DNA from: Escherichia coli
Lineage (GTDB): Bacteria; Pseudomonadota; Gammaproteobacteria; Enterobacterales; Enterobacteriaceae
Direction: 5' to 3' (one strand)
Assembly: GCF_048403405.1 (NCBI RefSeq)
Contig: NZ_CP183129.1
Length of the DNA: 64,000 nt
Shown here: in pieces, positions 1,318 to 61,795 of the stretch
Numbering within the stretch: the first letter of the stretch is position 1
Layout: every line of letters begins with the position of its first letter
Translations under genes and position numbers: made by a program
Notes under the pieces: generated by a model
Told to the model about the DNA's origin: nothing
The model's database searches: none
What the model saw: only the letters and a program-made list of their open reading frames with translations

Positions 1318-1448
1318 TCAAACGACTCGGGGTGCCCTTCTGCGTGAAGGCTGAGAAATACCCGTATCACCTGATCTGGATAATGCCAGCGTAGGGAAGT
1401 CACGGACCACCAGGTCATTGCTTCTTCACGTTATGGCAGGAGCAAACT
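1318..1448 (+). promoter_or_regulatory. TPP (thi-box) riboswitch in the thiM leader
   Basis: Sequence ...CGACUCGGGGUGCCCUUCUGCGUGAAGGCUGAGAAAUACCCGUAUCACCUGAUCUGGAUAAUGCCAGCGUAGGGAAGUC... matches the E. coli thiM TPP aptamer as recalled; it ends at the thiM SD and ATG (1449). Confidence 0.85.
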
Positions 1449-17584: not shown

Positions 17585-17611
17585 AAAAAATAAGCCCGTG
17601 TAAGGGAGATT
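17585..17611. other. Phage P2 attB core-like sequence (aaaaaataagcccgtgtaagggagatt) at the cyaR 3' end, unoccupied
   Basis: 27-mer read from sequence; matches the P2 attachment core as I recall it; no prophage genes flank it here. Confidence 0.5.
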
Positions 17612-17671
17612 ACACAGGCTAAGGAGGTGGTTCCTGGTACAGCTAGCATTTTATGGGTTATGTTTTTCAGC
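17585..17671 (-). ncRNA. cyaR: CyaR (RyeE) Hfq-dependent sRNA
   Basis: Reverse complement reads GCUGAAAAACAUAACCCAUAAAAUGCUAGCUGUACCAGGAACCACCUCCUUAGCCUGUGUAAUCUCCCUUACACGGGCUUAUUUUUU, matching E. coli CyaR as recalled. Confidence 0.85.
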
Positions 17672-17755
17672 GAAACGGATGATAACCTTAATAAATGCAG
17701 CTGTATGTGATCGGTTTCTAAGAATTTTCCATCCGGGAAAAATAATCGAAATTAA

Positions 17756-29300: not shown

Positions 29301-29512
29301 GCAGAGGTCATGACATCCGGGCTCGCACCTGGGTAGAGCGTGACTACCTGAATGGTCGGATAGTCCACTTCCGGCAGCGCCGAAACGGGCAGGGCTCTAT
29401 AACCGATAATCCCAGCGAGTAAGATCGCCACCATCAGCAGCGTGGTGGCGACAGGACGCATAATAAACAGGCGCGACGGGCCGCCTGTGCTGCTCGGGGG
29501 TAACACCTGCAT
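26390..29512 (-). CDS. mdtB: RND multidrug efflux pump subunit MdtB, 1040 aa
   Basis: ORF track; AcrB-like paralogue of mdtC. Confidence 0.9.
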
Positions 29513-30759
29513 CAGGAGCGTGCTCCTTTTTTCGCGTATTCGCGGCTGGTGGCTTTCTCTTCCGGAGTGGTGGCGCTCTGGGCTTCCACTACTTCCACTT
29601 TCGCCCCTTCGGTCAGGCGATCAATGCCGTCTGTCACTACGCGGTCGCCCGCAGAAATACCTGCGCGGATCACCACTTTCTGACTGTCCTGAATGCCCGG
29701 CGTCACCAGATGTTTGCTGACCTTGTTTTCGCTATTCAGCACCCAGACAAAATGGCCTTCGTTGCCCATTTGCAGAGCGGCGGTGGGGATCACCACGGCG
29801 TTTTGTTCGGTGTCGACTAACATACGCGCGTTAACAAACTGATTGGGAAACAGCGCATCATCCTGATTATTAAAGCGTGCTTTCACTTTAATCGTACCGG
29901 TAGTGGCATCGATTTGGTTATCGAGGCTTAACAGCGTGCCTTCACTTAATTTCTTCGAGTTGGTGCGATCCCAGGCTTCTACCACCAGCGGTTTTCCGGT
30001 TTTTTGCGCCTGTACTACGGTAGCGATATCGCTTTCCGGCAGGGTAAAGAGCAAATCGATAGGATGCGTCTGGGTGATCACCACAATCCCGGTGGTATCA
30101 CCACTGGAGATTTGGTTACCAACATCAACCTGCTTGAGACCAACGCGACCATCGATTGGTGCGGTGATGCGGCTCCAGTCGAGCTGCAGCTGCGCGCTGG
30201 CGACGCTTGCTTCATCAGCCTTAATGGTGCCTTCGGTTTCACTGACCAGCGCCTGTTGGGCATCCAGCTCCTGGCGGGAGACAAGATTGGTTTTTGCCAG
30301 TTGTTGATAACGCGCCAGGTCACGGCGGGCGTTGGCAAGCGTGGCTTTATCTTTTGCCAGTTGGCCCTGGGCTTGTGCTAATGCAACTTTGAACTGGCTT
30401 GGGTCAATTTCTGCCAGTAAATCGCCTGCTTTGACCTGCTGGCCTTCCTGGAAATGTAACGCCATCAGTTGACCGTCCACGCGGCTGCGCACCGTAACGG
30501 TATTAGCGGCGGTAATGGTGCCAAGCCCGGTGAGATAACGTGGCACAGCTTGTTCTACGGCAGTCGCCGCCTGAACCGGGGCTAATGGGCCGGCACGCAT
30601 ACCACGGCGACCACCCGCTGGCGATTGCTGCGCTTGTTTCGTCGCCCCTGGGGCTGCACTCTGGGAGTCATTGCGGCCTTGCCAGAACCAGAATGCGGCG
30701 ATGGCGGCGATAACCAACACGATTACGATTACCCAACGGGATTTATAACTGCCTTTCAT
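29512..30759 (-). CDS. mdtA: Membrane fusion (periplasmic adaptor) protein MdtA, 415 aa
   Basis: ORF 29512..30906; start moved to MKGSYKSRW to match MdtA length as recalled. Confidence 0.85.
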
Positions 30760-30812
30760 CGTTAAGAGTTTCTCTTCCTGAAACGTTTCACGGAATGATA
30801 CTAGTGTAGCCA

Positions 30813-30830
30813 GCCAATAAGGGAGAAAAA
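30813..30830 (-). promoter_or_regulatory. BaeR box upstream of mdtA (TTTTTCTCCCTTATTGGC on the minus strand)
   Basis: 17/18 match to the BaeR consensus TTTTTCTCCATDATTGGC as recalled; about 55 bp upstream of the mdtA start. Confidence 0.6.
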
Positions 30831-30989
30831 TGGAGGAATTATGAAACACTGTCGGGAATCGTCTGAATGACGGGCACATTTGCGAGCACGCATCCAGTAA
30901 TAACACATGAAACTATTTTATCTGCAAGTTAGCGATAGACTGCTTGCATGGCGAAAGGAGGTAAGCCGCCGTTTTCAGCGGGACGCTGA

Positions 30990-31128
30990 AACGGGAAAGC
31001 CCCTCCCGAGGAAGGGGCCTTAAATAAGGAAAGGGTCATGATGAAGCTACTCATCATCGTGGTGCTCTTAGTGATTAGCTACCCAGCATACTAAGACTAC
31101 CAGGGCGGGGGAAACCCCGCTCTACCCT
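30990..31128 (-). ncRNA. Sib-family antisense sRNA (type I antitoxin), copy 1; ends approximate
   Basis: Minus-strand promoter-like TTGACA-17-TACTTT near 31135..31165 and hairpin gcccct/aggggc plus U-rich tail near 30995..31018; fully overlaps ibs copy 1. Confidence 0.5.
31038..31094 (+). CDS. Ibs-family type I toxin peptide, copy 1 (MMKLLIIVVLLVISYPAY)
   Basis: 18-codon ORF with SD aaggaaagggtc upstream; Ibs-like hydrophobic peptide. Confidence 0.75.
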   Translation: MMKLLIIVVLLVISYPAY

Positions 31129-31317
31129 CACTCCTGAAAGTATGCCTTCACGATAAGATTGTCAATCTGCAGGCTTTGCAGTCTGCGATCCTGCCAGCAA
31201 ATATTCTTTGCGAGACGTTACGCAATAATCACACTGGAAACTATTTTATCCGCAAGTCAGCGATAGACTGCATACAGGGCGAAAGGAGGTAAGCCGACGA
31301 TTTCAGCGGGACGCTGA

Positions 31318-31456
31318 AACGGGAAAGCCCCTCCCGAGGAAGGGGCCTTAAATAAGGAAAGGGTCATGATGAAGATACTCATCATCGTGGTGCTCTTAGT
31401 GATTAGCTACCCAGCATACTAAGACTACCAGGGCGGGGGAAACCCCGCTCTACCCT
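31318..31456 (-). ncRNA. Sib-family antisense sRNA, copy 2; ends approximate
   Basis: Same elements at equivalent positions in repeat unit 2. Confidence 0.5.
31366..31422 (+). CDS. Ibs-family type I toxin peptide, copy 2 (MMKILIIVVLLVISYPAY)
   Basis: Same position within repeat unit 2. Confidence 0.75.
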   Translation: MMKILIIVVLLVISYPAY

Positions 31457-31646
31457 CACTCCTGAAAGTATGCCTTCACGATAAGATTGTCAATCCGCAG
31501 GCTTTGCAGTCTGCGATCCTGCCAGCAAATATTCTTTGCGAGTCGTTACGCAATAATCACAGAGGAAACTATTTTGGTCACGCGTTAGCGATAGACTGCA
31601 TTCAGGGCGAAAGGAGGTAAGCCGACGATTTCAGCGGGACGCTGAA

Positions 31647-31790
31647 ACGGGAAACCCTCTCCCGGAGAAGAGGGCTTTTAATAAGGAAAGGGTTATGATG
31701 AAGCACGTCATCATACTGGAGATACTCTTAGTGATTAGCTTCCAGGCTTACTAAGAACACCAGGGGGAGGGAGAAACCTCTCCCTAACCC
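31647..31790 (-). ncRNA. Sib-family antisense sRNA, copy 3; ends approximate
   Basis: Equivalent position in unit 3; minus-strand TTGACA-17-TAATTT promoter-like element near 31800..31830. Confidence 0.45.
31695..31754 (+). CDS. Ibs-family type I toxin peptide, copy 3 (MMKHVIILEILLVISFQAY), IbsA-like but with an internal Glu
   Basis: 19-codon ORF in repeat unit 3; GAG codon read directly from sequence. Confidence 0.7.
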   Translation: MMKHVIILEILLVISFQAY

Positions 31791-31974
31791 TCACTCCTGA
31801 AATTATGTCACTCCGCCCTTAGTGTCAATCGACGGCTCTCCGTTCTTGCGAGGCGAATAGCAAAATTTTCTGCGCCGCCGGGCCTAATTCTGAAAGTTTC
31901 TTCGTTTGCTCTTATTTCATTATTGCAATCGGTATGATACCGGGCCTCAATAATTCTCTAAGAAAGGATTTCTT

Positions 31975-32634
31975 ATGAGCGAACAAATCACGTTTGCCAC
32001 CAGCGATTTTGCCAGTAACCCGGAACCACGTTGCCCCTGCATTTTGCTGCTGGATGTTTCTGGTTCTATGAACGGTAGACCTATTAATGAACTTAACGCC
32101 GGATTGGTTACCTTTCGCGATGAGCTGCTTGCCGATTCGCTGGCCTTAAAAAGAGTGGAACTCGGCATTGTGACGTTCGGCCCGGTGCATGTGGAACAAC
32201 CCTTTACCAGCGCCGCTAATTTTTTCCCGCCCATCCTGTTTGCCCAGGGCGATACACCAATGGGCGCTGCCATTACCAAAGCCCTGGATATGGTAGAGGA
32301 GCGGAAACGTGAGTATCGTGCAAATGGTATTTCGTATTATCGCCCGTGGATTTTCCTGATCACCGATGGCGCTCCAACCGATGAGTGGCAGGCTGCCGCC
32401 AACAAAGTGTTTCAGGGGGAAGAAGATAAGAAGTTTGCCTTCTTTTCCATCGGTGTTCAGGGGGCGGATATGAAGACTTTGGCACAAATCAGCGTTCGTC
32501 AGCCTTTGCCACTGCAGGGATTACAATTCCGTGAACTGTTTAGCTGGTTATCCAGTTCGCTGCGTTCGGTTTCCCGCTCCACGCCGGGAACGGAAGTTGT
32601 GCTGGAAGCGCCAAAAGGCTGGACGTCAGTGTGA
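31975..32634 (+). CDS. yegL: von Willebrand factor A (TerY-like) domain protein with MIDAS motif, 219 aa
   Basis: ORF track; DVSGS MIDAS motif at nt 32053..32067; matches YegL as recalled. Confidence 0.8.
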
Positions 32635-33392
32635 GCTGGCGTCTGGTCTATGCATCAACCGTTGGAACGTCGCACATCAGCGCGGACTTGCCTTGCCAGG
32701 ATGCCTGCCAGATGCAGGTTGCCTGGTTAAATGACCAGCAGCCATTATTGTCGGTATTTGTCGCCGATGGCGCAGGTAGCGTCTCGCAGGGTGGCGAAGG
32801 TGCGGAGCTTGCCGTTAATGAAGCGATGGCTTATATGATGCAAAAATTGCAGGGCGGGGAATTGGGGCTTAATGATGTCCTCGCAACGGATATTGTGCTG
32901 ACCGTTCGTCAGCGACTTTTTGCCGAGGCGGAAGCCAAAGAATTAGCTGTTCGCGATTTTGCCTGCACGTTTATGGGATTGATTTCATCAGCTAATGGCA
33001 CCCTGATTATGCAGATTGGCGATGGCGGCGTGGTGGTAGATTTGGGGCACGGTCTGCAACTGCCGCTCACGCCGATGGTAGGTGAATATGCCAATATGAC
33101 ACACTTCATTACTGATGAAGATGCCGTTTCCAGACTGGAAACTTTCACCAGCACTGAGCGTGCGCATAAAGTTGCAGCATTTACGGATGGTATCCAGCGG
33201 CTGGCGTTAAATATGCTGGATAATTCTCCCCATGTGCCTTTCTTTACCCCGTTTTTCAATGGGCTGGCGTCAGCAACGCAGGAACAACTCGATTTATTAC
33301 CTGAATTGTTAAAGCAGTTTTTGTCCAGCCCGGCGGTAAACGAGCGTACGGATGATGATAAAACGTTGGCACTGGCGCTGTGGTTACCATGA
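32631..33392 (+). CDS. yegK: PP2C-family Ser/Thr protein phosphatase, 253 aa, GTG start
   Basis: ORF track; GTGA overlap with the yegL stop; PP2C-like Asp-rich motifs (VADGAGS, GDGG); YegK (PphC) as recalled. Confidence 0.8.
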
Positions 33393-35329
33393 AACCCACT
33401 TTATATACTGCTACTGGTGAGTGCGTTACGCCAGGCTGTGAACTGGGCAAAGGTGGCGAAGGCGCGGTTTATGATATCGAGGAGTTTGTCGATAGCGTCG
33501 CCAAGATTTATCACACGCCGCCACCCGCCTTAAAACAGGACAAACTTGCCTTTATGGCTGCGACAGCTGACGCACAGTTGCTGAATTATGTCGCCTGGCC
33601 GCAGGCAACGCTTCACGGTGGACGAGGCGGAAAAGTTATCGGTTTTATGATGCCAAAAGTTTCTGGTAAAGAACCGATTCATATGATCTATAGCCCGGCA
33701 CATCGTCGCCAGAGTTACCCTCATTGTGCGTGGGATTTTCTACTCTATGTTGCGCGTAATATTGCTTCATCTTTTGCTACGGTTCACGAGCACGGGCATG
33801 TCGTGGGTGACGTAAACCAGAACAGCTTTATGGTAGGCCGTGACAGCAAAGTGGTGTTGATTGATAGCGACTCCTTTCAGATTAACGCCAACGGCACACT
33901 GCATTTATGCGAAGTCGGCGTGTCGCATTTTACGCCGCCAGAGCTGCAAACCTTGCCATCATTTGTCGGCTTTGAACGCACCGCGAATCACGATAATTTT
34001 GGCCTTGCGTTGCTGATTTTTCACGTCTTGTTTGGTGGTCGGCATCCTTATTCCGGTGTACCGCTTATCTCTGATGCGGGTAATGCGCTGGAGACGGATA
34101 TTGCCCATTTCCGTTATGCCTACGCGTCAGATAATCAGCGACGTGGTTTAAAACCGCCGCCACGATCTATTCCGCTGTCGATGTTACCGGGCGATGTTGA
34201 AGCCATGTTTCAGCAGGCATTCACGGAAAGTGGCGTGGCAACCGCGCGTCCGACGGCAAAAGCGTGGGTAGCGGCACTTGATTTACTACGCCAACAGTTA
34301 AAGAAATGTACCGTTTCGGCAATGCATGTTTACCCCGGTCATTTGACTGACTGCCCGTGGTGTGCGCTGGATAATCAAGGCGTTATCTATTTTATTGATC
34401 TCGGCGAAGAGGTCATTACCACCGGCGGTGATTTTGTGCTGGCGAAAGTCTGGGCAATGGTGATGGCGTCAGTAGCACCACCAGCATTGCAACTGCCATT
34501 ACCCGATCATTTCCAACCGACTGGCAGGCCGCTTCCTTTAGGCCTGTTACGGCGTGAATACATCATTCTGATTGAGATCGCACTGTCAGCGTTATCGCTG
34601 CTGCTTTGCGGCCTTCAGGTAGAACCGCGTTATATCATTTTGGTTCCCGTGCTGGCGGCTATCTGGATTATTGGCAGCCTGACAAGCAAAGCGTACAAAG
34701 CAGAAATCCAGCAACGTCGTGAGGCGTTTAATCGCGCGAAAATGGACTATGACCATTTAGTAAGCCAGATCCAACGGCTGGGCGGGCTGGAAGGTTTTAT
34801 CGCCAAACGGGCGATGATCGAAAAAATGAAGGACGAAATTCTCGGGTTACCGGAAGAGGAGAAACGCGCTCTGGCAGCACTTCATGACACTGCAAGGGAA
34901 CGGCAGAAGCAGAAGTTTCTGGAGGGATTTTTTATTGATGTTGCCTCTATTCCCGGCGTTGGCCCTGCGCGTAAAGCGGCGTTACGGTCTTTTGGTATTG
35001 AAACAGCCGCAGATGTTACCCGTCGTGGCGTTAAGCAAGTGAAAGGGTTTGGCGACCATCTGACCCAGGCGGTTATCGACTGGAAAGCGAGTTGTGAACG
35101 CCGTTTTGTGTTCAGGCCGAACGAAGCGGTAACGCCTGCAGACAGACAAGCGGTACTGACTAAAATGGCCGCCAAACGACATCGGCTGGAATCGACGTTG
35201 ACTGTCGGCGCGACAGAGTTGCAGCGATTCCGCCTTCAAGCTCCAGCACGGACCATGCCGTTGATGGAACCGTTACGTCAGGCGGCAGAAAAACTGGCTC
35301 AGGCGCAGGCTGAATTAAGCCGTTGCTGA
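33380..35329 (+). CDS. yegI: Atypical membrane Ser/Thr protein kinase with C-terminal helix-hairpin-helix region, about 646-649 aa
   Basis: ORF track; start may be 33380, 33383 or 33389, all overlapping the yegK stop; Gly-rich loop GKGGEGAVY, VAKIY Lys, HGHVVGDVNQN catalytic-loop-like, DSDSF; two predicted TM helices; HhH-like IPGVGPARKAALRSFGI. Confidence 0.8.
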   Translation: MVTMKPTLYTATGECVTPGCELGKGGEGAVYDIEEFVDSVAKIYHTPPPALKQDKLAFMAATADAQLLNYVAWPQATLHGGRGGKVIGFMMPKVSGKEPIHMIYSPAHRRQSYPHCAWDFLLYVARNIASSFATVHEHGHVVGDVNQNSFMVGRDSKVVLIDSDSFQINANGTLHLCEVGVSHFTPPELQTLPSFVGFERTANHDNFGLALLIFHVLFGGRHPYSGVPLISDAGNALETDIAHFRYAYASDNQRRGLKPPPRSIPLSMLPGDVEAMFQQAFTESGVATARPTAKAWVAALDLLRQQLKKCTVSAMHVYPGHLTDCPWCALDNQGVIYFIDLGEEVITTGGDFVLAKVWAMVMASVAPPALQLPLPDHFQPTGRPLPLGLLRREYIILIEIALSALSLLLCGLQVEPRYIILVPVLAAIWIIGSLTSKAYKAEIQQRREAFNRAKMDYDHLVSQIQRLGGLEGFIAKRAMIEKMKDEILGLPEEEKRALAALHDTARERQKQKFLEGFFIDVASIPGVGPARKAALRSFGIETAADVTRRGVKQVKGFGDHLTQAVIDWKASCERRFVFRPNEAVTPADRQAVLTKMAAKRHRLESTLTVGATELQRFRLQAPARTMPLMEPLRQAAEKLAQAQAELSRC

Positions 35330-35341
35330 GCCAGTTTTCAA

Positions 35342-36694
35342 TTAACGAAACACCACTTCCGCCCAGCGTGCCAGCCCGGCGGTGACGGAGCCAAAGTCAT
35401 CGCCGCCTGCAATCGGAATGCCCGGCAACTGTTCTGCCAGCGCCTTTTTAATCAGCGGTGAACGGGCGCTACCGCCGGTCAGGTAGATAACGTCCGGTTT
35501 TTCCTGGGCGTTATCCAGGGCCAGTTGCACCTGTTCCAGAATCCGCGCCAGTGGCTGGCTGAGGGCGCTTTCCAGCCCTTGCTGGCTAATCAGCGTAGCC
35601 AGTTCATCGCTGATAAACGGCAGTGAGGCGCGGGTTTCCGCTACGCTTGAAAGCGCAATTTTGCTCTCTTCTGCGCTACGTACCAGGCGATAGCTTAAAC
35701 GCTGACGCCAGACTTTCTGTAACAGGGCCACTTTTTCCGGTTCGCGGGCATCGCGTACCAGATCGTTAAGCAGACGACCGTTGGCACTACTGTAGAAATC
35801 ACTTTGCGCAGGGACGTCGTTGATGGCAACCGCATTCCACCACGGCAGAATCGGCAGGGCGATGCCTTTTTCGGTTTCGCCCCCCATGCCCAGTAACGGC
35901 ATCAGGTTTTTAAACGCCAGTGCGATATCCAGATCGTTACCGCCAATACGGCAACCACTGTGACCCAGCAGGCTGGCTTCACGATCGAGACGCGAACGCC
36001 ACTGCGGCCCCATCAGCAGCAATGAACAGTCAGTCGTACCACCGCCGATATCCACCACCAGCACCCGTTTTTCTTCCTGCAAGGTGGCTTCGTAATCCAG
36101 CCCAGCCGCGACCGGCTCGTACTGGAATACCACATCCTTAAACCCGGCACGCTTCGCCGCGCGTTCCAGAATCCCCTGCGCCTGGGTGTTTGCTTCATCG
36201 CCGCCAAGCCCCTGGAAGTTGATAGGGCGACCAATTACCGCCTGAGTAATCGCATCCGGCAGCTGTGCCTGCGCCTGCTGGCGAATGTGCAACATCATTG
36301 CGCAGACCAGATCCTCAAACAGCGCTACCTGCTGCGGTTTTAAGCCGCTGGCACCGAGGAACGATTTTGGTGATTTCACAAACCACACTTCTTCTGGATC
36401 ATCAATGTACTGTGCCAGTGAGGAAAGACCGAACTGCACGCTTTTCGCCGTAACATCGATATCTTCTTCGCGGTTATAACGAATCGCCCGACGCAACAGC
36501 GCCTGCGTTTCATCGTCGTCTGCCGGAACATCATGATGGCGGTACAGCCATTCGCTTACCGCTTCACGCGTTGGCGCGCAAAGCATTGAAGGCAGCAGCG
36601 TGCTGTCGTTTTCCATTTTCAGTAATTGCGGCTTACCGTCGCGCATGACCGCCACTGAACAGTTTGCTGTACCGTAATCAAAACCAATAAACAC
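35342..36694 (-). CDS. yegD: Hsp70/actin-fold ATPase-domain protein, 450 aa, GTG start
   Basis: ORF 35342..36757; start moved to GTG (VFIGFDYGTANC) to match YegD length as recalled; convergent with yegI with a 12-bp gap. Confidence 0.8.
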   Translation of the reverse strand: MFIGFDYGTANCSVAVMRDGKPQLLKMENDSTLLPSMLCAPTREAVSEWLYRHHDVPADDDETQALLRRAIRYNREEDIDVTAKSVQFGLSSLAQYIDDPEEVWFVKSPKSFLGASGLKPQQVALFEDLVCAMMLHIRQQAQAQLPDAITQAVIGRPINFQGLGGDEANTQAQGILERAAKRAGFKDVVFQYEPVAAGLDYEATLQEEKRVLVVDIGGGTTDCSLLLMGPQWRSRLDREASLLGHSGCRIGGNDLDIALAFKNLMPLLGMGGETEKGIALPILPWWNAVAINDVPAQSDFYSSANGRLLNDLVRDAREPEKVALLQKVWRQRLSYRLVRSAEESKIALSSVAETRASLPFISDELATLISQQGLESALSQPLARILEQVQLALDNAQEKPDVIYLTGGSARSPLIKKALAEQLPGIPIAGGDDFGSVTAGLARWAEVVFR

Positions 36695-36766
36695 GAAATA
36701 ATCCCCATGCCGGTGAAGAAGGGGCGTGACTTTAGCGAAATGTTGCCGTCGCGACAACCGGAATAT

Positions 36767-36779
36767 GAAAGCAAAGCGT
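36767..36779 (+). promoter_or_regulatory. Ada-box-like motif (aaagcaaagcgta) upstream of alkA
   Basis: Read from sequence about 50 bp upstream of the alkA ATG; alkA is Ada-regulated in E. coli; exact consensus match not verified. Confidence 0.35.
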
Positions 36780-36827
36780 AGCGTCTGAATAACGTTTATG
36801 CTGAAAGCGGATTAACAAGGAGATGCG

Positions 36828-37685
36828 ATGTATACCCTGAACTGGCAGCCGCCGTATGACTGGTCGTGGATGTTGGGATTTCTCGCCGCCCGTGCGGTGA
36901 ACGGTGTGGAAACGGTCGCTGACGATTATTATGCCCGTAGTCTGGCGGTGGGCGAATATCGCGGCGTGGTGACTGCTATTCCGGATATAGCCCGCCATAC
37001 TCTGCACATAAATTTAAGTGCAGGTTTAGAACCTGTTGCCGCAGAGTGTCTGGCGAAAATGAGCCGCCTGTTTGATCTGCAATGTAACCCGCAGATTGTT
37101 AACGGTGCGTTGGGCAAGTTAGGCGCGGCGCGGCCCGGATTGCGTTTACCCGGCAGTGTTGATGCTTTTGAGCAGGGCGTGCGGGCGATTTTAGGCCAAC
37201 TGGTGAGCGTGGCGATGGCGGCAAAATTGACCGCCAGAGTGGCACAGCTTTATGGCGAACGGCTGGATGATTTTCCGGATTATGTCTGCTTCCCCACGCC
37301 TCAGCGGCTGGCAGCAGCCGACCCGCAGGCATTAAAAGCGTTAGGTATGCCGTTGAAACGGGCAGAGGCGCTGATTAATCTGGCAAATGCGGCGCTGGAG
37401 GGCACCTTACCAATGACAATTCCGGGCGACGTAGAGCAAGCGATGAAAACGCTGCAAACTTTTCCGGGTATCGGGCGCTGGACGGCGAATTATTTCGCCT
37501 TACGTGGCTGGCAGGCGAAAGATGTTTTCCTGCCGGATGATTATCTGATTAAACAGCGATTTCCGGGAATGACACCGGCACAAATCCGCCGTTATGCCGA
37601 ACGCTGGAAGCCCTGGCGTTCTTATGCGCTGTTGCATATCTGGTATACGGAAGGCTGGCAACCAGACGGAACGGACGAATTGTAG
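36828..37685 (+). CDS. alkA: 3-methyladenine DNA glycosylase II, 285 aa
   Basis: ORF track; recognised AlkA sequence; C-terminus (…WQPDGTDEL) differs slightly from the K-12 protein as recalled. Confidence 0.9.
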   Translation: MYTLNWQPPYDWSWMLGFLAARAVNGVETVADDYYARSLAVGEYRGVVTAIPDIARHTLHINLSAGLEPVAAECLAKMSRLFDLQCNPQIVNGALGKLGAARPGLRLPGSVDAFEQGVRAILGQLVSVAMAAKLTARVAQLYGERLDDFPDYVCFPTPQRLAAADPQALKALGMPLKRAEALINLANAALEGTLPMTIPGDVEQAMKTLQTFPGIGRWTANYFALRGWQAKDVFLPDDYLIKQRFPGMTPAQIRRYAERWKPWRSYALLHIWYTEGWQPDGTDEL

Positions 37686-46876: not shown

Positions 46877-47344
46877 AGTAAGTACAAAACCTATTCGTTG
46901 TATGACAAATGTCACAATTCGATCATGGATAAATCGGGGCAAAAATGCAATGTTGCAGCACTATTTATCTCATATTATTTGAGGGTAATAACCTCACATT
47001 ACCCCTGAATTAAAAGTGGTAATAATAAAACATTATTTAAGAAATATCGCATGTGGAGACACTATATTAAATATTGTCAACCTAAAGAAACTCCTAAAAA
47101 CCATATTGAATGACACTTAATATAATTCTTAAAAATAGCCAATTGCCGAATTGTTACCTTGCCTGCTATTCCGTTAGCTGTAACACTTCCTCCTGCATTA
47201 TTGGAGAGCCAATATTCAATTACCATAATGTCACCTTATATTCGGAAGTTAATTTCCGCAATAACCCTTTCTCATCAACGACTGTATGTTGAGAGGGTTT
47301 TAAAAATTAAGCTAAATCAGTGTATTGGTAGCTAAAAAGCCAGG

Positions 47345-47356
47345 GGCGGTAGCGTG
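47345..47356 (+). promoter_or_regulatory. ops element (GGCGGTAGCGTG) within a JUMPStart-like leader upstream of wza
   Basis: Exact ops 12-mer read from sequence about 180 bp upstream of the wza ATG; RfaH-dependent antitermination site in polysaccharide operons. Confidence 0.7.
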
Positions 47357-61695: not shown

Positions 61696-61795
61696 CCGTT
61701 GAATAATCAACCGGATTAATTCTCCGGTAAATAACGAAAAAACAAAATTGGCCGTTTCGGTCAGGGCCAACTATTGCCTGAAAAAGGGTAACGAC

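What the first reader, a model, noticed from the sequence alone, without database searches (positions are those of the whole stretch)
31695..31754. Third Ibs copy carries a Glu in the middle of the hydrophobic toxin
Copy 3 translates to MMKHVIILEILLVISFQAY. An acidic residue at position 9 of a 19-residue membrane-inserting peptide is unexpected. It could attenuate toxicity, or be a tolerated variant whose Sib partner co-varies.
Basis: seen in the sequence. Interest (0 to 1): 0.45.

Follow-up and report, generated by a model that had tools for sequence, protein, structure and literature searches.

The report
Rare Glu variant of IbsA toxin
The small ORF is the well-known E. coli membrane toxin gene ibsA carrying a real but rare single-base variant (Val9 to Glu, 15 of 5,426 complete genomes) that most likely weakens an already dispensable toxin, so it is a minor natural curiosity rather than a new system.

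Summary
Window 31695-31754 (+) encodes MMKHVIILEILLVISFQAY. It is the third, yegL-proximal unit of a three-unit ibs/Sib type I toxin-antitoxin array between mdtA and yegL, and the orthologue of K-12 ibsA. K-12 IbsA has Val9, so the Glu comes from one transversion (GTG to GAG, window 31720).

The allele is real and rare. An allele-specific 39-mer finds it in 15 of 5,426 complete E. coli genomes, against 4,459 with Val9. RefSeq already holds the peptide as WP_072146903.1. Fourteen carriers share one distinctive ibsA-yegL-alkA haplotype; the fifteenth holds it as a roughly 370-bp recombinant patch.

In 46 Ibs peptides sampled from other enterobacterial species, position 9 of the 19-mers is V, I or A, and no acidic residue occurs in the core. 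Hydrophobicity scales put the cost at +3 to +4 kcal/mol, or about +0.6 if the Glu is protonated. An attenuated toxin is therefore the most likely reading, but it is untested.

The "co-varying Sib partner" is trivial, because SibA is transcribed from the same DNA. The base is SibA nt 73, outside the TRD1/TRD2-equivalent regions. It breaks one pair of a conserved stem in both RNAs. This is a known system and the interest is low.

The parts
29512..30759 (-). mdtA (5' flank gene of the array)
   Evidence: ORF listed. The start codon at 30757-30759 is read. The position matches annotated mdtA in identical loci.
31038..31094 (+). ibs copy 1, IbsB-like (MMKLLIIVVLLVISYPAY; F15Y relative to K-12 IbsB)
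   Evidence: Translation. Annotated as WP_001386901.1 'Ibs family toxin' in identical loci.
31023..31165 (-). Sib RNA of unit 1 (the Rfam model includes the promoter-proximal bases)
   Evidence: RF00113, 141.6 bits.
31366..31422 (+). ibs copy 2, IbsB-like (MMKILIIVVLLVISYPAY)
   Evidence: Translation. WP_012767742.1 in identical loci.
31351..31493 (-). Sib RNA of unit 2
   Evidence: RF00113, 140.8 bits.
31695..31754 (+). ibsA orthologue with Val9Glu (MMKHVIILEILLVISFQAY)
   Evidence: 18 of 19 residues match K-12 IbsA. Annotated as gene ibsA, WP_072146903.1, in 15 genomes.
31720..31720 (+). The SNP: T-to-A, codon 9 GTG to GAG; equals SibA nt 73, A to U
   Evidence: Unit alignment (relative position 25). 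SibA mapping.
31649..31792 (-). SibA antitoxin RNA, with ends placed by gap-free homology to the annotated 144-nt K-12 SibA
   Evidence: It differs from K-12 SibA at only 3 nt (21, 73, 138). The Rfam hit 31680-31828 scores 145.9 bits.
31716..31721 (+). 5' arm (CUGGAG; canonical CUGGUG) of a conserved stem in ibsA mRNA, mirrored in SibA
   Evidence: Folds. Family covariation CUGGUG/CACCAG versus CUGAUUG/CAAUCAG.
31758..31763 (+). 3' arm (CACCAG) of that stem, just after the stop codon
31772..31772 (+). Second derived SNP (G to A; SibA nt 21, 5' hairpin), present in all ten E9 sequences examined (nine fetched genomes plus the window) and in none of the five V9 comparators
   Evidence: relative position 77.
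31975..32634 (+). yegL (3' flank gene). It starts the 5.5-kb haplotype block that travels with the E9 allele.

Best explanation
This is the ibsA/SibA unit of the chromosomal ibs/Sib type I toxin-antitoxin array between mdtA and yegL in an E. coli whose locus resembles that of strain 042. It carries a rare, lineage-restricted missense SNP (GTG to GAG, Val9Glu). Shown: the allele is genuine, it has a single origin on one haplotype, and it is moved by homologous recombination. Everything else in the unit is canonical, namely the start region, the SibA promoter region, the SibA RNA and the other two ibs copies. Inferred: Ibs peptides act as single-pass membrane helices whose toxicity depends on the aliphatic centre. 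A carboxylate at position 9 splits the 10-residue aliphatic run into 4 + 5 and costs about 3-4 kcal/mol of membrane partitioning. The peptide is therefore most likely a hypomorph, with weaker insertion and weaker depolarisation or target binding. Such an allele can drift because ibsA is dispensable: about 17% of complete genomes have no ibsA-type unit at this locus, the array varies from 2 to 4 units, and K-12 cells lacking SibA are reported to be viable while still expressing ibsA. The Sib partner does not 'co-vary' in any meaningful sense. It is the antisense of the same DNA, and full complementarity is preserved by construction. The changed base lies 5-6 nt outside the TRD1-equivalent region and outside TRD2, so repression should persist.
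For: Identity and anatomy. Frequency: the E9 39-mer is in 15 of 5,426 genomes and the V9 39-mer in 4,459. In metagenome contigs, a Glu/Asp codon (GAN) at codon 9 gave 0 matches and the Val9 version gave 20. Single origin: the ten E9 sequences examined (nine fetched genomes plus the window) share derived bases at relative positions 25 and 77. Exactly 14 genomes match the 5.5-kb right flank at 100% and all 14 are E9 carriers; the next best match is 97.8%. Strain AF39 shares only -117..+248 around the ORF. Recombination at the array: TUM14771 and 3059 have an identical 24-kb left flank but a two-unit array with canonical IbsA. Conservation: position 9 is V31/I7/A1 in 39 19-mers, and no D or E occurs at positions 5-14 of 46 peptides. 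Hydrophobicity: +2.99 (Hessa) and +4.09 (Wimley-White, charged) kcal/mol. Literature: the hydrophobic centre determines IbsC toxicity, and at least 10 hydrophobic residues are needed (Mok 2010 as summarised in PMC8309996 and PMC9860968). Dispensability: about 927 genomes have only IbsB-like units. SibA-deficient cells are viable and ibsA expression is harmless in delta-ibsA/sibA cells (PMC2943612). RNA mapping.
Against: No toxicity measurement exists for this allele, and I found no paper that mentions it. Ibs toxicity is unusually tolerant of sequence change. [quoted passage not shown] The Ala scan of Salmonella IbsA found only H3 and L11 essential, so the side chain at position 9 is not specifically required (bioRxiv 10.1101/2025.05.26.656083). 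A protonated Glu costs only about +0.6 kcal/mol. The allele is fixed in its haplotype with no second disabling mutation in the ORF, which does not look like ongoing decay.
Confidence: 0.6

Rival explanations
1. Functionally neutral variant. The Glu is protonated in the bilayer or snorkels, the peptide still inserts, and on overexpression it is as toxic as canonical IbsA.
For: Protonated Glu costs only +0.57 kcal/mol on the octanol scale. IbsC tolerates extensive mutation and even frameshifts. Position 9 was not essential in the Salmonella IbsA Ala scan. The ORF, its start region and SibA are otherwise intact, and the allele is stably inherited in 15 genomes from several countries and hosts.
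Against: No acidic residue is seen in the core of 46 natural homologues, and position 9 is strictly V, I or A. Reviews state that the hydrophobic centre determines toxicity. An alanine scan does not probe charge.
Confidence: 0.25
2. Altered or gained function. A mid-membrane carboxylate drives helix-helix association, or makes insertion pH-dependent, or changes the contact with the Fo a/b subunits of ATP synthase that a 2025 preprint reports as IbsA targets. The allele would then be kept by selection.
For: Leads only. Salmonella IbsA is reported to bind the Fo a and b subunits and block proton translocation. Charged and polar residues are reported as functional in another type I toxin, TisB (title of PMC11449926; not read). 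From general knowledge, polar residues in transmembrane helices promote oligomerisation and carboxylates give pH-gated insertion. The allele is fixed across all 14 genomes with its haplotype.
Against: There is no direct evidence. The allele is very rare (0.3%) and shows no sign of spreading beyond one haplotype plus one recombinant patch. On a helical wheel E9 (80 degrees) does not lie on the K3/L11 face (200/280 degrees). Zero variation over the 5.5-kb flank shows that the carriers share very recent ancestry at this locus, so fixation needs no selection.
Confidence: 0.07
3. The relevant effect is on RNA, not peptide. The SNP removes the fifth pair (U-A) of a conserved six-pair stem (CUGGUG/CACCAG). 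That stem closes the TRD1-bearing hairpin of SibA and its mirror image in ibsA mRNA, so the SNP would change antisense pairing kinetics or RNA stability.
For: The predicted MFE rises by 4.0 kcal/mol for SibA and by 3.0-4.4 kcal/mol for ibsA mRNA segments, and the stem is lost in the MFE fold. The stem is supported by covariation across species, CUGGUG/CACCAG versus CUGAUUG/CAAUCAG. A second derived SNP in SibA (nt 21) is linked to it.
Against: The four-pair core annotated by Rfam (CUGG/CCAG) stays intact, and the unit gives the best SIB_RNA score of the three (145.9 bits). The base lies outside the TRD1 and TRD2 equivalents, either of which suffices for repression in SibC. Predicted TRD accessibility is unchanged. 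Cognate complementarity is perfect by construction. One homologue (L105, Ala9, GCG) also breaks this pair naturally.
Confidence: 0.06
4. Sequencing or assembly artefact in the window.
For: None.
Against: The identical allele is present in 15 independent complete assemblies, and eight are 100% identical to the window over the whole 1,216-nt intergenic region.
Confidence: 0.01

Closest known systems
IbsA/SibA of E. coli K-12 (b4667/b4436), type I toxin-antitoxin pair
   Same: Same genomic position next to yegL. 18 of 19 residues are identical. SibA is 141/144 nt identical. The sequence is identical to K-12 from 39 nt upstream of the start codon to the SNP, and from relative position 78 to 232, which includes the SibA promoter region.
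   Different: Val9Glu (SibA A73U), plus SibA C21U and C138G. The array has three units here against two in K-12.
IbsC/SibC of E. coli K-12, the experimentally dissected member
   Same: 19-aa peptide of the same architecture. The antisense RNA has two recognition domains, TRD1 within the ORF and TRD2 over the translation initiation region. The hydrophobic centre is reported as the determinant of toxicity.
   Different: A paralogue at another locus. Position 9 is Ile. The primary mutagenesis paper (Mok 2010) could not be read here, so whether a charged residue at position 9 was tested is unknown.
Salmonella Typhimurium IbsA (bioRxiv 10.1101/2025.05.26.656083)
   Same: 19-aa Ibs peptide with residue 3 basic and Leu11. 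It is described as a bacteriostatic membrane toxin that lowers ATP and membrane potential.
   Different: Located at the yqiK-rfaE locus. It is reported to act by binding the Fo a/b subunits. Only an Ala scan was done, and no charged substitutions are reported in the sections read.
Natural Ibs copies with a disrupted core in other species (Citrobacter amalonaticus R7; C. braakii P11; L131 G10/P13; L123 T13)
   Same: Otherwise canonical Ibs ORFs carrying one or two non-hydrophobic residues within positions 5-14. This shows that such variants do segregate in nature.
   Different: None has an acidic residue, none is at position 9, and their activity is also untested.

Membership tests
Ibs/Sib type I toxin-antitoxin system | Cis-encoded antisense Sib RNA of about 140 nt that overlaps the whole toxin ORF and its initiation region | tested here: met
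   RF00113 SIB_RNA at 31680-31828 (-), 145.9 bits against a gathering score of 56, full model 1-147. 141/144 nt identical to annotated K-12 SibA.
Ibs/Sib type I toxin-antitoxin system | 18-19 codon ORF of the form MM-[K/R]-x, then an aliphatic core, then S-[F/L/Y]-x-[A/T]-Y | tested here: met
   MMKHVIILEILLVISFQAY fits the family pattern at every position except 9, compared with position-specific counts from 39 19-mers.
Ibs/Sib type I toxin-antitoxin system | Uninterrupted hydrophobic core (positions 5-14) | tested here: not met
   Glu at position 9 cuts the aliphatic run from 10 residues to 4 + 5. 42 of 46 sampled homologues have a fully hydrophobic core and none has an acidic residue. This is a property of the typical member rather than a formal criterion for membership.
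Ibs/Sib type I toxin-antitoxin system | Tandem repeat units in a conserved intergenic region | tested here: met
   Three units with 328-332 nt spacing between mdtA and yegL, the same site as sibA/sibB in K-12.
Ibs/Sib type I toxin-antitoxin system | The peptide is toxic when overexpressed and is repressed by its cognate Sib RNA | not testable with these tools
   Needs inducible expression and co-transformation assays. No published data on this allele were found.
IbsA orthologue (as opposed to IbsB/C/D/E) | yegL-proximal unit, His4 and a Phe-Gln-Ala-Tyr tail, 19 residues | tested here: met
   18/19 identity with K-12 IbsA, against the 18-residue IbsB-like peptides of units 1 and 2. PGAP assigns the gene symbol ibsA in all the carrier genomes listed.

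The most novel reading that the evidence does not exclude
The mid-helix Glu is not a defect. It would convert IbsA into a conditionally active toxin, for example one that inserts or oligomerises only when protonated, or one that contacts the proton path of the Fo a subunit differently. Selection would then have retained it on a haplotype that recombination is spreading among clinical E. coli lineages.
Probability: 0.06. Interest if true: 0.55.

Novelty: already known. Interest (0 to 1): 0.2.

Why it matters
As it stands, this matters little. It is a catalogued allele (WP_072146903.1) of a well-studied toxin-antitoxin gene, present in about 0.3% of complete E. coli genomes. Its modest value is as a ready-made natural experiment. 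It is a single charged residue in the centre of a 19-residue membrane toxin, available in isolates such as MS 69-1. Comparing it with an E9V revertant would test how strictly Ibs toxicity, and the recently proposed binding to ATP synthase Fo, depends on an unbroken hydrophobic helix. The locus also shows that the ibs/Sib repeat array is a junction for homologous recombination, with a variable number of units.

Tried and rejected
- **Protein-database tools:** They refuse a 19-aa query (listing of cluster members; the search for homologous proteins). Pfam, NCBIfam, structure prediction and exact-sequence contig look-ups also have minimum lengths above 19 aa. I therefore used allele-specific 39-mers, in which every 28-nt megablast seed spans the SNP, and a DNA-pattern scan of species-representative genomes.
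- **Primary papers not held:** Mok et al. 2010 (PMC3009890) and Fozo et al. 2008 (PMC2597788) are not in the library. Their content is cited only through later papers.
- **Promoter scan:** The simple sigma-70 scan found no site in 31500-31980. SibA promoter integrity is instead argued from identity to K-12 between relative positions 78 and 232.
- **Metagenome scans:** A Glu/Asp codon at position 9 gave 0 matches and the Val9 control gave only 20. This confirms rarity and adds nothing else.
- **Compensation between the two linked SNPs:** In the mRNA a possible U26/G78 wobble pair would become A/A, and in SibA A73/C21 becomes U/U. Neither change restores a pair.
- **Gene conversion from a paralogue:** No K-12 Ibs (A, B, C) and none of the sampled homologues has Glu9.
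- **Not attempted:** Sequence types of the carrier strains could not be determined here.

Full report
**Observation.** Window 31695-31754 on the + strand reads ATGATGAAGCACGTCATCATACTGGAGATACTCTTAGTGATTAGCTTCCAGGCTTACTAA and translates to MMKHVIILEILLVISFQAY*. The reverse strand has no ORF there.

**Anatomy of the locus.**
- The ORF lies in a 1.2-kb intergenic region between mdtA (-, start codon at 30757-30759) and yegL (+, 31975-32634).
- The region holds three tandem units spaced 328-332 nt apart.
- Each unit has a short ibs ORF on the + strand: 31038-31094 (MMKLLIIVVLLVISYPAY), 31366-31422 (MMKILIIVVLLVISYPAY) and 31695-31754.
- Each unit also has a full-length Rfam SIB_RNA match on the - strand, at 141.6, 140.8 and 145.9 bits against a gathering score of 56.
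- In K-12 the same intergenic region holds two units. sibA/ibsA lies next to yegL and sibB/ibsB lies next to mdtA.
- The third unit here is therefore the ibsA/SibA orthologue, and units 1 and 2 are IbsB-like.

**Comparison with the reference.** K-12 IbsA is MMKHVIILVILLVISFQAY. The window differs by one residue, Val9Glu, caused by one transversion (GTG to GAG, window 31720).

**Frequency.**
- I used 39-nt queries centred on the SNP, so that every 28-nt megablast seed has to contain it.
- The Glu allele is present in 15 of 5,426 complete E. coli genomes and the Val allele in 4,459. That is 0.34% of genomes scored for either allele.
- About 927 further genomes match this unit at only 80-95% identity. 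The two I examined (FY26 and SCU-313) have only IbsB-like ORFs there and no ibsA-type unit.
- In metagenome contigs, a Glu/Asp codon (GAN) at position 9 was found 0 times and the Val codon 20 times.
- RefSeq already holds the E9 peptide as WP_072146903.1, with gene symbol ibsA and product 'type I toxin-antitoxin system Ibs family toxin'.
- Carriers come from human blood, urine, wound, colon and rectal swab. One comes from a mountain pygmy possum, and one more carries no host or source entry. Where a country is given, it is the USA, Japan, Italy, the UK or Australia.
- The allele is therefore real and not an assembly error.

**Origin and spread.**
- Within the ibsA/SibA unit, the E9 genomes examined differ from their nearest Val9 relatives at only two positions in every comparison. 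These are the V9E base and a G-to-A change 52 nt downstream (window 31772, SibA nt 21). Depending on the comparator, one or two further positions also differ (relative positions 145 and 249). Both derived bases are present in all ten E9 sequences examined.
- The 5.5 kb to the right (yegL to alkA) is 100% identical in exactly 14 genomes, and all 14 are E9 carriers. The next best genome is at 97.8%.
- The fifteenth carrier, AF39, shares only -117 to +248 around the ORF and is about 2-3% divergent on both sides. This indicates a short recombinant patch rather than a recurrent mutation.
- To the left (mdtABC and units 1-2) the carriers fall into at least four haplotypes that are 100-170 SNPs apart.
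- Two genomes, TUM14771 and 3059, are identical to the window over the 24 kb further left. Yet they have a two-unit array with canonical IbsA and a different right flank.
- The repeat array is therefore a recombination junction. Unit number varies from 2 to 4, and E9 travels with the right-hand block.
- The window matches strains 4621, MS 69-1, TUM1226 and OX030728 in every segment tested.

**How unusual the Glu is within the family.**
- Protein tools reject 19-aa queries.
- This gave 46 Ibs peptides, 39 of them 19-mers with 34 unique sequences, from Citrobacter, Kluyvera, Pseudocitrobacter, Salmonella, E. albertii and others.
- Position 9 of the 19-mers is V (31), I (7) or A (1).
- No Asp or Glu occurs anywhere in positions 5-14 of any peptide.
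- Only four peptides have any non-hydrophobic core residue: R7, P11, T13, and G10 with P13.
- E9 is therefore a clear outlier, although single disruptive core residues do occur naturally.

**Expected biophysical effect.**
- V to E at a central position costs +2.99 kcal/mol on the Hessa 2005 biological scale.
- It costs +4.09 kcal/mol on the Wimley-White octanol scale if the Glu is charged, and only +0.57 if it is protonated.
- The longest aliphatic run falls from 10 residues to 5.
- On a helical wheel E9 (80 degrees) is not on the K3/L11 face (200/280 degrees).

**Literature.**
- Reviews summarising Mok et al. 2010 state that the hydrophobic centre of IbsC determines toxicity, and that residues 6-19 with at least 10 hydrophobic residues are required.
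- Against this, ibsC is said to tolerate extensive mutation and remains toxic even when frame-shifted.
- An Ala scan of Salmonella IbsA found only H3 and L11 essential. That preprint proposes inhibition of the Fo a/b subunits as the mechanism.
- Han et al. [quoted passage not shown]
- I found no paper that mentions this allele.

**RNA level and the 'co-variation' idea.**
- SibA is the antisense transcript of the same DNA, so it necessarily carries the complementary change (A73U). This is not compensatory evolution.
- Aligned to SibC, nt 73 lies 5-6 nt 3' of the TRD1 equivalent (+46 to +68) and outside TRD2 (+99 to +115). Either domain alone suffices for repression in SibC.
- The base does take part in a six-pair stem, CUGGUG (31716-31721) with CACCAG (31758-31763). 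This stem closes the TRD1-bearing hairpin in SibA and its mirror image in ibsA mRNA.
- The stem is supported by covariation across species: CUGGUG/CACCAG in IbsA-type units against CUGAUUG/CAAUCAG in Ile9 units.
- The SNP converts its fifth pair into U-U in SibA and A-A in the mRNA. The predicted MFE rises by 4.0 kcal/mol for SibA and by 3.0-4.4 kcal/mol for mRNA segments. Predicted TRD and Shine-Dalgarno accessibility do not change.
- The Rfam four-pair core stays intact, and this unit scores best of the three.

**Interpretation.**
- Most likely (about 0.6): a rare, single-origin, hitch-hiking missense allele that weakens a toxin which E. coli can do without.
- Next (about 0.25): functionally neutral.
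- Small probabilities: an altered-function peptide, for example protonation-gated or oligomerising (about 0.07), or a primarily RNA-level effect (about 0.06).
- Artefact is excluded.
- Shown: identity, rarity, haplotype structure, family-wide conservation and RNA mapping.
- Inferred: every statement about toxicity.

**Novelty and interest.** The system, the gene and even this peptide sequence are already in public annotation. Nothing categorically new is present. The allele is a convenient natural test case for how strictly Ibs peptides need an unbroken hydrophobic helix. I score interest at 0.2.

Noticed in passing
window 30760-31975; loci L004, L017, L139, L140: The ibs/Sib array between mdtA and yegL varies from 2 to 4 units among E. 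coli genomes and acts as a recombination junction. Strains TUM14771 and 3059 are identical to the window over 24 kb on the left, but carry a two-unit array with canonical IbsA and a different right flank.
   Followed up: partly
window 31800-37300: The yegL-pphC-yegI-yegD-alkA block is 100% identical in only 14 of 5,426 genomes, all of them E9 carriers. It is at most 97.8% identical to every other genome, so it is an unusually distinct haplotype of unknown source.
   Followed up: partly
window 32631-35329: yegJ is absent. pphC (32631-33392) and yegI (33380-35329) overlap directly, as in most E9 carriers and in strains 1190 and SW4848. Strains 042, AF39, SW071620, TUM14771 and 3059 have yegJ between them.
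   Followed up: no
window 31772: A second derived SNP (G to A; SibA nt 21, in the 5' hairpin) is present in all ten E9 sequences examined and in none of the Val9 comparators. It converts a predicted G-C pair to G-U in SibA. It is not compensatory with the V9E base.
   Followed up: partly
window 31716-31721 with 31758-31763; loci L021-L131: A stem closes the 3' two-thirds of the ibs ORF, mirrored in Sib. It covaries across species: CUGGUG/CACCAG against CUGAUUG/CAAUCAG. The first base of codon 9 (G for Val, A for Ile) therefore co-changes with a base just downstream of the stop codon.
   Followed up: partly
loci L085, L092, L131, L123, L105: Some natural Ibs homologues in Citrobacter and relatives carry disruptive or unusual core residues. 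They are R7 (MMKYVIRLVILLVISLPAY), P11 (MMKQVIILVIPLVISLPAY), G10/P13, T13 and A9. They may be decaying copies.
   Followed up: no
window 31038-31094: Copy 1 differs from K-12 IbsB by F15Y (MMKLLIIVVLLVISYPAY against ...SFPAY). Copy 2 additionally has L4I.
   Followed up: no
window 17588-17673 (-), 1318-1414 (+), 47318-47356 (+), 61742-61791 (+): Other Rfam matches in the window: CyaR/RyeE sRNA, a TPP riboswitch, a JUMPstart element (in the stretch whose matches include colanic-acid genes such as wzc and cpsB) and an algC RNA motif.
   Followed up: no
locus L002 11128-11984: alkA is annotated as frameshifted in E9 carrier WP4-S18-ESBL-07 but is intact in the other carriers.
   Followed up: no
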